A stretch of DNA of 64,000 bases from NCBI RefSeq assembly GCF_006345805.1, contig NC_043012.1, positions 26,164,001 to 26,228,000 of the forward strand. Reading direction: 5' to 3'. Position 1 is the first letter of the stretch, and every line of letters begins with the position of its first letter. This DNA comes from Octopus sinensis. Taxonomy: Eukaryota. This document shows, in pieces, positions 21,188-58,494 of the stretch. A model generated the notes under the pieces. The model saw only the letters and a program-made list of their open reading frames with translations, searched no databases and was not told the origin of the DNA. The position numbers were made by a program, and so were the translations under genes.

Positions 21188-21238
21188 TCACAATTGTCTG
21201 ATGAGCGATCTCGTGAAACCCTGTGTAACAGTTTGTGA
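21188..21238 (+). ncRNA. Type I hammerhead ribozyme with intact core
   Basis: tcacaattgt CTGATGA gcg-atct-cgt GAAA c-cctgt-GTA acagtttgtga; ~10-bp stem I with one bulge; predicted cleavage after 21227. Confidence 0.75.
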
Positions 21239-21383
21239 CGTCTTGGGGCTTTAAGAAAGTAGCATATATGTATGCATATATATATATATACATATATATG
21301 CATATATATGCATATATATGTATGCATACATGTATATATATGCATATATATGTATGCATACATGTATATATACATATATATGG

Positions 21384-21433
<50 letters not shown>

Positions 21434-21440
21434 CATATAT

Positions 21441-21660
21441 ACATTCAAAATATGACCGCGTGTGTACCGTTGGCGATCTTTTTCCTCAGTCTTTCCTTAT
21501 TTGGATCTTTCGTTTTCCTATGTTTCTGACGAAGAGCTCCGCTCGAAACGTTAAATCCTCCTTCTTTCTTTCCTTCCTGAGCGTCGAATAACACTATACT
21601 TGTTCCACGTGCTCGCGTTGTTGTGTTTTCTCTTTGTGTTTTCATGTTTGGATTAACTCT

Positions 21661-21662
<2 letters not shown>
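21441..21662 (+). mobile_element. ~220-bp (TA)n-embedded Penelope pLTR/retrozyme-like element with a minimal hammerhead (21522-21556)
   Basis: gttt CTGACGA a gagc-tcc-gctc GAAACGTT aaat; copies at 21710-21907 (-) and 57958-58182 (+). Confidence 0.75.
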
Positions 21663-21709
<47 letters not shown>

Positions 21710-21712
<3 letters not shown>

Positions 21713-21907
21713 AGAGTTAATCCAAACATGAAAACACAAAGAGAAAACACAACAACGCGAGGAGGCTCAGGAAAGGAAAGAAAGAAGGAGGATTTAACGT
21801 TTCGAGCGGAGCTCTTCGTCAGAAACATAGGAAAAGGAAAGATCCAAAGAAGGAAAGACTGAGGAAAAAGATCGCCAACGGTACACACGCGGTCATATTT
21901 TGAATGT
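21710..21907 (-). mobile_element. Inverted copy of the same element (hammerhead 21792-21826), ~25-bp internal deletion
   Basis: Reverse complement aligns to 21441-21662, including the flanking TA-rich sequence. Confidence 0.8.
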
Positions 21908-21922
21908 ATATATGTATATAAC

Positions 21923-21961
<39 letters not shown>

Positions 21962-21979
21962 GCATATATATATACATAT

Positions 21980-22011
<32 letters not shown>

Positions 22012-22369
22012 CATATATATGTATAGATACATGTATGCATACATATATATATATGTGTGTGTATATATATATATGTATATATACACATTCACATATGCAA
22101 TTATTTATGTATATATATATTTTGGAGCTGTACTTGCATAGCACGTGACTTGATCTAGGATCGTGTGCTGAAACAAAAGTAATGGGTGTTTGGAAGATGT
22201 TTGTAATCCATTTGTAAACATGAAGTTTTGTTCAGTGAACAGGATGCGGTTTCGAAGCGACGAAAATATTTTGACACAAATTAAGTTGAAATGATGAAAT
22301 GAATCTATTGGGATTGTTTTGTGTGAGTGTTCTTAAATCGCTTACAAACATCTTCTACGCTGCAATTGT

Positions 22370-30394: not shown

Positions 30395-30494
30395 NNNNNN
30401 NNNNNNNNNNNNNNNNNNNNNNNNNNNNNNNNNNNNNNNNNNNNNNNNNNNNNNNNNNNNNNNNNNNNNNNNNNNNNNNNNNNNNNNNNNNNNN
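30395..30494. other. Assembly gap (100 N)
   Basis: Run of N. Confidence 1.
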
Positions 30495-47082: not shown

Positions 47083-48324
47083 CATCTGTTTGTTGTCTAC
47101 ACCACCTGTCTTTTTTTTGTGAATTTTCCCCTATACATATATATACACGCACACGTGTGTGTTTGTGTGTGTGTATGTTTGTGTGTGGGTGTGTATGTGT
47201 GTGTGTGTGGTGTGTGTGTGTATAATGTCAGATGCACTGTAATTAGTAAGAAGGGGGACGATGGCTTACAAAAGTATTCTGAATACTTTCCGGCAAATTC
47301 GAACATGAATATATTAAGCGTTGTAGTGTTTTATCCCAAAAGAATAATTATTTCATACAAATGTGTGTTCATAAAATAGATTCCTTAGCATAACGGATTC
47401 AGGAAAAAAGGTGGTGTTTCGACAACGTTGTGACTCGTCAGTCACAGTCACAACGGACTTATAAATCTGACAAGAATCGATGCTCTTGTTCATAACTTCA
47501 GCGAACAAATTGTGTGCTGATCCGTGCAGGCATCTGCCAACGATAATAAATCGCCATGTGAGCGCTTTGATTCTCATAGCTTACATTCTCTACTTGAGAA
47601 GAAAATGATTATATCTATATATATATATAATGTAGTTATACAAGTGTGCGTGTAAATGTGTGTTTTTGAAATTGTGTTTATCAAAAGGAATGTGTATGTC
47701 CATCTGCATGTGTATGTCTACGTGTGCTTATATTTATGAAATATTACATTTATGCTATACGCATGTATGACTATATGGGTATATAATACGTGCAGAAGAG
47801 AGGTATTGACTGCATATTCATGAAATATCAACATAAATGAAAGAGTTGACAAGATGTATATATATATATATAATATATATATATACCTTTACGTATACAC
47901 ACATGCGCATATCCATATTAATGCATTTATGTATGCAAATATATATACATATAGATATATACATATATATGTATACAGAATATATAATTATATACATATA
48001 TAAGATTATATATATGTACATATATATATATCTCACCTATCTATCTATTTATATTATAATATATCTATATATAATATATATAATATAAGTATGTATGTAT
48101 GTGTATGCATGTAAGTATGAGCATATAATTATAGATAAAGTTGGAGTATGATCAAGAGAGGAAGAATTTGAATTAGAAAAACATGGATGACAAAGGATAT
48201 AAAAACAGGAGCAAGAAATATGAAATTTTCTTTTTTGCTCGCCTCTACAATTATCAGCCTAAAAACTGTGTGGATTATAAGCGCGTGGAAAAGAAAGTAG
48301 TGAAATAACGTTATATACACAGAC

Positions 48325-57889: not shown

Positions 57890-57957
57890 TGTGTGTGCAT
57901 TTGTGTGTGTGTATATATATATATATATTTCTTTATATATATAAATATATATGTATA

Positions 57958-58182
57958 TTCCCTTCCGGTCTTTCAAAATGTGACCTCGTGTGTACCGTTG
58001 GCGATTTTTTCCTCTGTCTTCCCTTCTCTGGATCTTTCCTTCTCCAACGTTTCCGACGAAGAGCTCCGCTCGAAACGTTAAGCCCTCCTTCTTTCCTTCT
58101 TTCCTGAGCGTCCAATAATACTTTATTTGTTCCACGTCCTCGCGTTGTGTTTTTTTTGTGTTTTCTTGTTTGGATTAACTAT
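57958..58182 (+). mobile_element. Third copy of the ~220-bp hammerhead-bearing element (motif 58049-58083, core CCGACGA)
   Basis: Aligns to 21441-21662; flanked by TA-rich microsatellite. Confidence 0.8.
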
Positions 58183-58218
58183 ATATATATATATAATATA
58201 TGGAGCAAAATAGTTTGA

Positions 58219-58277
58219 TTCAAAATCGTTGGTACTCTTAAGTTTCGAGCGCGATGCTAGTCGTCAGCCATTTTAAA
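58219..58277 (-). ncRNA. Type I hammerhead motif, partly decayed stem II
   Basis: Minus strand: tttaaaatgg CTGACGA ct-agc-atcgc-gct-c GAAA cttaagaGTA ccaacgattttgaa. Confidence 0.55.
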
Positions 58278-58494
58278 TTTAAATGACAGACGTTGATTGT
58301 TATTACTGTAAGGTGGGCTGTGAGTGGTCAAGGAAGGTCACGTGGTGTCGTGGTTTCATGTTGGTATATGGGTAACTTTTTGTTGGTAAATACTGCATGG
58401 CGAACGGGAAATCGACCTCGTGGAGGATAGGAAATATATGAGTATGTGTGTGTATGTGTGTGTGTGAATGTATGTACTATGTATGTATAAGTGT

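What the first reader, a model, noticed from the sequence alone, without database searches (positions are those of the whole stretch)
21420..21925. Tail-to-tail palindrome of a hammerhead-bearing, (TA)n-embedded mini-retroelement
Seen: two near-identical ~200-220-bp copies face each other across a (TA)n centre, and even the flanking microsatellite variants are mirrored, giving a ~500-bp palindrome. Each has CUGACGA-A-GAGC/GCUC-GAAACGUU with palindromic ACGU stem III. Stem I pairing is kept by alternative bases (GUUU/AAAU here, GUUU/AAGC at 58049). Either strand's transcript carries one ribozyme and its antisense. Known: minimal dimer-acting hammerheads and inverted pLTRs are Penelope hallmarks. 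Inference: a non-coding retrozyme-like family whose fold-back dsRNA could silence its own ribozyme or be edited by ADAR. This is the best candidate here for an undescribed system.
Basis: partly seen in the sequence, partly recalled or inferred. Interest (0 to 1): 0.75.

Follow-up and report, generated by a model that had tools for sequence, protein, structure and literature searches.

The report
Penelope stump mirrored at TA repeat
The palindrome is in the assembled sequence and consists of the cut-short end of a very common Penelope-type jumping gene, with its usual small ribozyme motif, plus a mirror copy likely made afterwards when the self-pairing TA repeat beside it folded back; the element is ordinary, while the mirror-making at TA repeats, seen at other sites too, is the one part worth a look.

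Summary
Observation confirmed: two sister copies (21442-21657 +, 21716-21906 -) face each other across a 58-bp TA centre, and the mirror runs about 130-160 bp further into the flanking microsatellite. The interpretation as a non-coding retrozyme-like family is not supported. The unit is the 5'-truncated 3' end (pseudo-LTR with minimal hammerhead) of a coding Neptune-like Penelope element: the same sequence flanks RT + zinc-finger linker + GIY-YIG frames elsewhere, and 16,108 exact 3' ends exist. Tail-to-tail junctions are rare (47) but exceed chance (2.2 uniform, about 11 after allowing for shared TA targets). Part are independent insertions, part are mirror copies, whose arms share rare changes and sometimes single-copy flank. 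Such mirrors also occur at a SINE's TA tail and once in non-Penelope DNA, so they are likely a general fold-back duplication at (TA)n, not Penelope's usual head-to-head inversion. Read data could not confirm this junction; no transcription, cleavage or editing was shown. The scan earlier reported head-to-head Penelope palindromes in this and other genomes; this one has the opposite geometry.

The parts
21442..21657 (+). Left arm: 5'-truncated 3' end (pseudo-LTR part) of a Neptune-like Penelope element
   Evidence: 87-95% identical to genomic copies; same sequence lies downstream of RT/GIY-YIG frames in 8 of 10 long loci and upstream in 2 of 10
21522..21556 (+). Minimal type I hammerhead motif: 4-bp stem I, core CUGACGA, extra A, 4-bp stem II, GAAA, palindromic ACGU, predicted cut after U21552
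   Evidence: Sequence; pairing kept in 122-129 of 130-131 copies per pair; fits the min-HHR consensus in the supplement of PMC4209133; activity untested
21658..21715 (.). Self-complementary (TA)n centre, the element's target and tail, inferred fold-back point
21716..21906 (-). Right arm: mirror copy with a 26-bp deletion 46 bp from the centre
   Evidence: the deletion junction occurs once in the genome; shares 4 rare states with the left arm
21792..21826 (-). Second, identical minimal hammerhead motif, on the opposite strand
21315..21441 (+). Left flanking compound microsatellite, outside the element, mirrored on the right
21907..22047 (-). Mirror copy of the flanking microsatellite, changed in repeat lengths
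57949..58178 (+). Third, independent copy of the same family, slightly longer at the 5' side, with a U4C core (hammerhead 58049-58083)
   Evidence: 87% identical to the left arm

Best explanation
The locus is one 5'-truncated end of a Neptune-like Penelope retroelement sitting in a (TA)n tract, plus a mirror copy of that end and its flank that was likely made later, in place, by fold-back at the self-complementary TA tail. Shown: family identity, copy number, fixed 3' end, sister status of the arms, mirror reaching into flank, same mirrors at other TA tracts. Inferred step 1: target-primed reverse transcription stopped after about 216 nt; the template continues UUUAUAUA after the pseudo-LTR in both full-structure copies, which would let it pair with a nicked (TA)n. 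Inferred step 2: a nick or break in the TA tail let the strand fold back and copy about 350-390 nt of its own upstream DNA before rejoining the other end. Inferred step 3: point changes, the 26-bp deletion and microsatellite slippage then eroded the symmetry. The hammerheads are passengers; they lie on opposite strands, so one transcript would hold only one and is predicted to bury it in a long duplex.
For: Family: 16,108 exact 14-nt 3' ends (control 65); ragged 5' ends with shared upstream sequence of more than 1.3 kb; RT then CX4CxxC linker then GIY-YIG in 30 loci, all with broken frames; relatives with RT and GIY-YIG domains, 280 hits; pLTR-ORF-pLTR in L107, pLTR-ORF in L104. Sister arms: 4 shared states at 1, 2, 7 and 18% frequency among other copies; 6 differences against panel median 25, minimum 8. 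Same 5' cut point and mirrored flank. Recurrence: 47 junctions against 2.2 (uniform) or 10.6 (scaled by PLE-SINE junctions, 71 against 14.5); 9 of 44 distinct junctions have arms closer than 95% of the panel, Fisher p=3e-6 (1e-5 without this locus). In-place origin: the single-copy flank mirrored in L121 is found only in its two arms, 92% alike. Not Penelope-specific: mirrors of 389 and 682 bp at a SINE's TA tail (L157, L166) and a 50-bp mirror of non-Penelope DNA at a TA tract in randomly taken DNA (L211). Fold-back inverted duplications at breaks are documented in yeast (PMC11724301, abstract).
Against: Reads did not confirm this junction: none of the 32 listed contig pieces (of 5,462) spans it. 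Three mirrors (L139, L157, L166) differ almost only by small indels, which read errors could also give. The background rate rests on 1 event in about 1,500 unselected TA tracts, and the 13-mer screen itself gave 2 hits against a shuffled mean of 0.45, maximum 4. 14 of 44 junctions have p>0.5 and many stubs (13-25 bp) are too short to class. Penelope ends show more excess than SINE ends (22-fold against 1.8-fold over uniform), so a role for the element's own enzyme is not excluded. No empty-site or single-arm allele was seen.
Confidence: 0.68

Rival explanations
1. Made by the element: a read-through RNA ending in (UA)n folds back and self-primes the Penelope RT, or the element's endonuclease re-cuts its own TA tail during or after insertion, giving a tail-to-tail palindrome.
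For: PMC3846280 states that self-priming on a sense template would give tail-to-tail repeats (passage). Tail-to-tail excess is larger for this family than for the SINE. The family targets (TA)n (27 of 29 other top copies have a clear TA run after the end).
Against: Mirrors include flank beyond the 5' truncation (this locus, L118, L121); no donor copy for L121's flank; mirrors also at SINE tails and non-Penelope DNA; the arms share rare changes that suggest a single copy aged first.
Confidence: 0.17
2. Assembly or read artefact: a strand-switching long read or mis-join at the TA run produced the mirror.
For: Junction not confirmed by contigs of 4 runs; three other mirrors differ nearly only by indels.
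Against: The arms differ by 3 substitutions and a 26-bp deletion whose junction is unique in the genome; each side runs on into different DNA; other mirrors are 8-9% diverged by substitution (L121 28, L118 32 substitutions), so the class exists in DNA.
Confidence: 0.1
3. Two independent insertions into one TA tract, later homogenised by gene conversion.
For: Independent tail-to-tail pairs exist (e.g. L111, L136, L144) and about 11 are expected.
Against: Identical 5' cut point and mirrored flank outside the element are not expected from separate insertions.
Confidence: 0.03
4. One reading: a non-coding retrozyme-like family whose palindromic form is a functional, self-silencing or edited unit.
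For: Hammerhead region is the best-kept internal part (0.96-0.97 against 0.84-0.95 for other internal 10-nt bins); a read-through RNA is predicted to form a -374 kcal/mol hairpin.
Against: Copies are truncations of a coding element; no tandem arrays of the unit in 30 top loci; palindromes are 0.6% of ends and have no common length; no host exon found nearby.
Confidence: 0.02

Closest known systems
Neptune-clade Penelope-like elements (C-terminal GIY-YIG, CX2-5CxxC linker, CCHH; PMC8557442, passages and two supplement rows)
   Same: Domain order RT-linker-EN, CX4CxxC linker, cysteines inside GIY-YIG, pseudo-LTRs, 5' truncation, (TA)n bias; linker and EN resemble Neptune1_Nv by eye
   Different: This family has a long CA-rich 3' region (1.5-3.5 kb), and no intact frame was found in 30 loci; the supplement lists octopus Naiads, and a 17-nt piece of this hammerhead was not found in it
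Minimal type I hammerheads of metazoan PLEs (Cervera and De la Pena 2014, PMC4209133; parts 1-2 of 4 and one supplement passage read)
   Same: Core, extra base before stem II, G10.1-C11.1, palindromic 15.2-16.2, short stem I; mostly solo in truncated copies; opposite-strand pairs 100-700 bp apart are reported there
   Different: Stem II only 4 bp; one third of copies carry U4C
Inverted pLTR insertion unit of EN+ PLEs (PMC3846280 and PMC8557442, passages)
   Same: Inverted repeat of the element's 3' part
   Different: Known unit is head-to-head with 3' ends outward; here 3' ends face inward and host flank is mirrored too. This family has few head-to-head pairs (46 within 500 bp against 11.5 uniform)
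Fold-back inverted duplication at DNA breaks (PMC11724301 abstract; PMC10622511 and PMC3907307 search listings only)
   Same: Short local inverted copy primed by a self-complementary end, rejoined to the other end
   Different: Those are yeast and human rearrangements; here germline, 13-680 bp, centred on (TA)n
Non-LTR retrozymes (PMC7229834 passages; bioRxiv 10.64898/2026.07.22.740005 part 1 of 5)
   Same: Short hammerhead-bearing repeat related to PLE pseudo-LTRs
   Different: Retrozymes are direct tandem repeats with no coding parent sequence in line; this is dispersed, 5'-ragged and continuous with an ORF

Membership tests
EN+ Penelope-like element | Single ORF with PLE-type RT followed by GIY-YIG endonuclease, joined to this repeat | tested here: met
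   Pfam RVT_1 E=0.002 and GIY-YIG E=0.002-0.005, both below curated cut-offs; homologues carry PF00078 and PF01541
EN+ Penelope-like element | Pseudo-LTR on both sides of the ORF (partial tandem) | tested here: met
   L107 both sides, L104 upstream, 8 of 10 downstream
EN+ Penelope-like element | Fixed 3' end, variable 5' truncation | tested here: met
EN+ Penelope-like element | Hammerhead motif in the pseudo-LTR | tested here: met
   98 of 131 copies keep the core if U4C is allowed, 65 of 131 strictly
EN+ Penelope-like element | 30-40 bp tail beyond one pseudo-LTR end | tested here: not met
   Top copies pass from GGATTAAC straight into TA or TC runs; the downstream CCGCACG sequence of L104/L107 was not seen in the 30 loci (described as optional in PMC3846280)
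Neptune clade | CX2-5CxxC linker upstream of GIY-YIG plus CCHH motif | tested here: met
   CSRSRCNTC linker, IYCIKCNLC...YIG, later H residues; shared with Nematis, so not exclusive
Neptune clade | RT phylogeny grouping with named Neptune elements | not tested
   No labelled reference set was available as files; only a by-eye match to Neptune1_Nv
Minimal type I hammerhead | Conserved core and three-stem layout with palindromic stem III | tested here: met
   no Rfam match
Minimal type I hammerhead | Self-cleavage as a dimer | not testable with these tools
   Energy model favours other folds (active-like monomer -2.5; nested dimer -3.1 against -22.5 kcal/mol), but lacks tertiary terms
Non-LTR retrozyme | Direct tandem repeats with a hammerhead in each unit | tested here: not met
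   No tandem of the unit here or in 29 other top loci; one has a second same-strand copy 1.3 kb away
Non-LTR retrozyme | No coding capacity in the parent element | tested here: not met
Non-LTR retrozyme | Abundant linear and circular RNA | not testable with these tools
   Only contigs were offered
Canonical inverted-pLTR insertion unit | Head-to-head geometry, mirror limited to element sequence | tested here: not met
   3' ends inward by ORF polarity; flank mirrored

The most novel reading that the evidence does not exclude
(TA)n tracts in this microsatellite-rich genome are standing generators of short germline mirror duplications (13-680 bp). With about 3 million tracts (776 per 664 kb) and roughly 1 in 1,500 mirrored, some thousands of palindromes would have been made this way, possibly triggered by nicks from TA-targeting retroelement endonucleases; where transcribed they would be a fresh source of long double-stranded RNA, and at Penelope ends they would switch off the copy's hammerhead.
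Probability: 0.35. Interest if true: 0.55.

Novelty: new member of a known kind. Interest (0 to 1): 0.27.

Why it matters
The element itself is ordinary, so the claim of an undescribed ribozyme system falls. What may matter is the geometry: tail-to-tail with mirrored host flank is not the known Penelope insertion footprint, and the same mirrors at SINE tails and plain TA tracts point to a mutational process that can be counted in any TA-rich genome. If real, it would explain part of the palindromes that scans and MITE finders pick up, and it offers a testable origin for dsRNA-forming sequence in a lineage known (recalled) for heavy RNA editing. I found no paper describing it at (TA)n in four searches, which is weak evidence of absence.

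Tried and rejected
Rfam on the window (365 matches at E<=1, the 150 listed all microRNA-family hits on TA-rich DNA, below gathering scores) and on the motif (0): uninformative. Contigs of 4 DNA-type runs laid on the right arm: family is deeply covered in all 4, but no listed piece spans the deletion junction and most records were not shown; inconclusive. The flanks and centre were not tested with reads, so linkage of the arms rests on the assembly. Host gene: Pfam on 150 of 386 non-repetitive frames in the window and 50 kb each side gave transposon domains and three weak hits (zf-C2H2, TadB, bPH); short exons would be missed. Pfam on three broken frames gave nothing. Editing footprint between arms: none. 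Compensatory change in stem II: 1 copy of 131 at one pair, so structure support is by motif, not covariation. Three duplicated junction records (second hits in L136 and L141, and L154) were dropped before the 44-junction analysis; only 15 of 44 SINE-SINE junctions and none of the head-to-head ones were analysed. The paper on dimer cleavage of PLE hammerheads (Lunse et al.) is not held; known only through PMC6765202 passages. PMC13282606 passages mention no hammerhead; PMC9977147 passages were not relevant. Supplements of bioRxiv papers and one file of PMC4209133 could not be seen and may name this family.

Full report
1. The observation. The window holds two copies of a repeat at 21442-21657 (+) and 21716-21906 (-), either side of a 58-bp TA centre. 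They differ by 3 substitutions, a 1-bp indel and a 26-bp deletion. The mirror continues into the compound microsatellite outside the repeat, nearly perfectly to 21392/21956 and recognisably to about 21315/22047. Each arm has the motif GUUU-CUGACGA-A-GAGC-UCC-GCUC-GAAACGUU-AAAU. A third copy at 57972-58180 is 87% alike and has CCGACGA.

2. What the repeat is. The window is G000:C16:26164001-26228000 in a 2.72-Gb genome; the label octopus comes from my recall of the repeat landscape and from earlier AI notes, not from a test. The repeat gave 1,229 candidates (40 scored); exact counts are 6,730 for a 23-nt end and 16,108 for a 14-nt end, control 65. In 30 top loci the 3' end is fixed at GGATTAAC and 27 of the 29 other copies go on into a clear TA run; 5' ends are ragged; none of the 29 has a tail-to-tail partner. 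Copies with more 5' sequence share over 1.3 kb of CA-rich DNA, and 2 of 10 extended loci reach coding sequence. In 30 loci picked by that sequence the frames read RT, a CX4CxxC linker, then GIY-YIG; all are broken, the longest 615 aa. Pfam hits are weak, but 280 longer homologues were found, most of the 120 listed carrying the RT domain. In 10 long loci the repeat lies downstream of the ORF in 8 and upstream in 2; L107 has both. So the unit is the 5'-truncated pseudo-LTR end of an EN+ Penelope-like element of Neptune or Nematis build (PMC8557442 passages), Neptune-like by eye against a supplement row. After the upstream pseudo-LTR both L104 and L107 read TTTATATA, which would let the RNA pair with a TA target (inference).

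3. The hammerhead. Among 131 distinct copies the motif is the best-kept internal region; 65 keep the strict core, 98 if U4C is allowed. Pairs are kept in 122-129 copies each, slid controls 0-72%, but almost wholly by invariance or one-sided change. It fits the published min-HHR consensus (PMC4209133), a paper that also reports opposite-strand pairs 100-700 bp apart and low activity of such motifs in vitro. Rfam does not detect it. The palindromic transcript is predicted to fold as one hairpin (-374 and -372 kcal/mol) with the motif fully paired. The two motifs are on opposite strands and cannot form the dimer within one RNA. Nothing here shows transcription.

4. How the palindrome arose. The arms are sisters: they share four states found in 1, 2, 7 and 18% of other copies, and are closer than any panel copy. 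They share the 5' cut point and flank, so this is a duplication of integrated DNA. Genome-wide, 47 tail-to-tail junctions exist against 2.2 by uniform chance; junctions between this end and a SINE end, which cannot be mirrors, number 71 against 14.5, which scales the expectation to 10.6 (this scaling is a lower bound if some SINEs inserted second). Of 44 distinct junctions, 9 have arms closer than 95% of a panel, 14 have p>0.5, combined p=3e-6: a mixture of mirrors and independent pairs. Mirrors run from short stubs to several hundred bases; L118 and L121 extend into flank with 32 and 28 substitutions, and L121's flank exists only in its two arms, which argues for old, in-place events and against both artefact and a moved hairpin. 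Of 15 SINE-SINE junctions examined (of 44), 2 are long mirrors into flank, 1 a short mirror with shared rare letters, 10 short stubs and 2 independent pairs. In 664 kb of unselected DNA with 776 TA tracts, one tract besides this one has a mirror, 50 bp of non-Penelope DNA, followed by a second small mirror at the next TA run (L211); about 730 unselected tracts in other loci gave only one low-complexity hit. The rates (about 0.06-0.12% of Penelope ends, about 0.07% of tracts with a very wide interval) are compatible with one general process. Fold-back priming at breaks is known in yeast (PMC11724301 abstract); its application here is inference.

5. Against this reading. The junction was not confirmed in reads; L139, L157 and L166 differ almost only by indels and could be read artefacts; the background rate rests on one event; the Penelope excess (22-fold) is well above the SINE's (1.8-fold), and a published passage predicts tail-to-tail repeats from self-priming on sense RNA (PMC3846280). 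I give 0.68 to later fold-back at (TA)n, 0.17 to the element's own enzymes, 0.10 to artefact, 0.05 to the rest.

6. Comparison and novelty. It is a member of EN+ Penelope-like elements by ORF, pseudo-LTR, truncation and hammerhead; the optional tail was not seen and the clade was not tested by a tree. It is not a retrozyme (no tandem units, coding parent). It differs from the canonical inverted unit, which is head-to-head; this family has only 46 such pairs within 500 bp against 11.5 uniform. Earlier scan notes describe head-to-head Penelope palindromes in this and other genomes; none of the 16 listed entries describes tail-to-tail mirrors with host flank. Four literature searches found no account of (TA)n-centred mirror duplication in an animal germline. 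Verdict: ordinary element, new member of a known kind; the mirror process is a modest lead. Interest 0.27.

Noticed in passing
window 21193-21232 (+): A second, unrelated type I hammerhead-like motif (AUUGU CUGAUGA GCGA-UC-UCGU GAAA ... GUA ACAGU) about 210 bp left of the palindrome
   Followed up: no
window 58215-58285 (-) and 47395-47460 (-): Two more CUGANGA...GAAA motifs; the first lies just beyond the TA tail of the third copy, facing it
   Followed up: no
family-wide; window 58053-58059: U4C core in 43 of 131 copies, including most copies joined to ORFs; activity unknown
   Followed up: partly
L211 2835-3015 (G000:C5, 110.0 Mb): Double mirror A-(TA)n-A'-B'-(TA)n-B beside a SINE start, as two opened hairpin ends would leave
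   Followed up: partly
L136 and L141: The tail-to-tail junction itself is repeated in tandem about 550 bp apart
   Followed up: no
L129, L121 and this locus: One arm of a mirror carries an internal deletion (about 120, 12 and 26 bp), as erosion of palindromes would give
   Followed up: partly
L193 1-1084: Perfect palindrome with 542-bp arms and no spacer in randomly taken DNA
   Followed up: no
L098 and L010: Inverted truncated copy at the 5' side of a family member, the canonical head-to-head form
   Followed up: no
window 30395-30494: 100-N assembly gap
   Followed up: no
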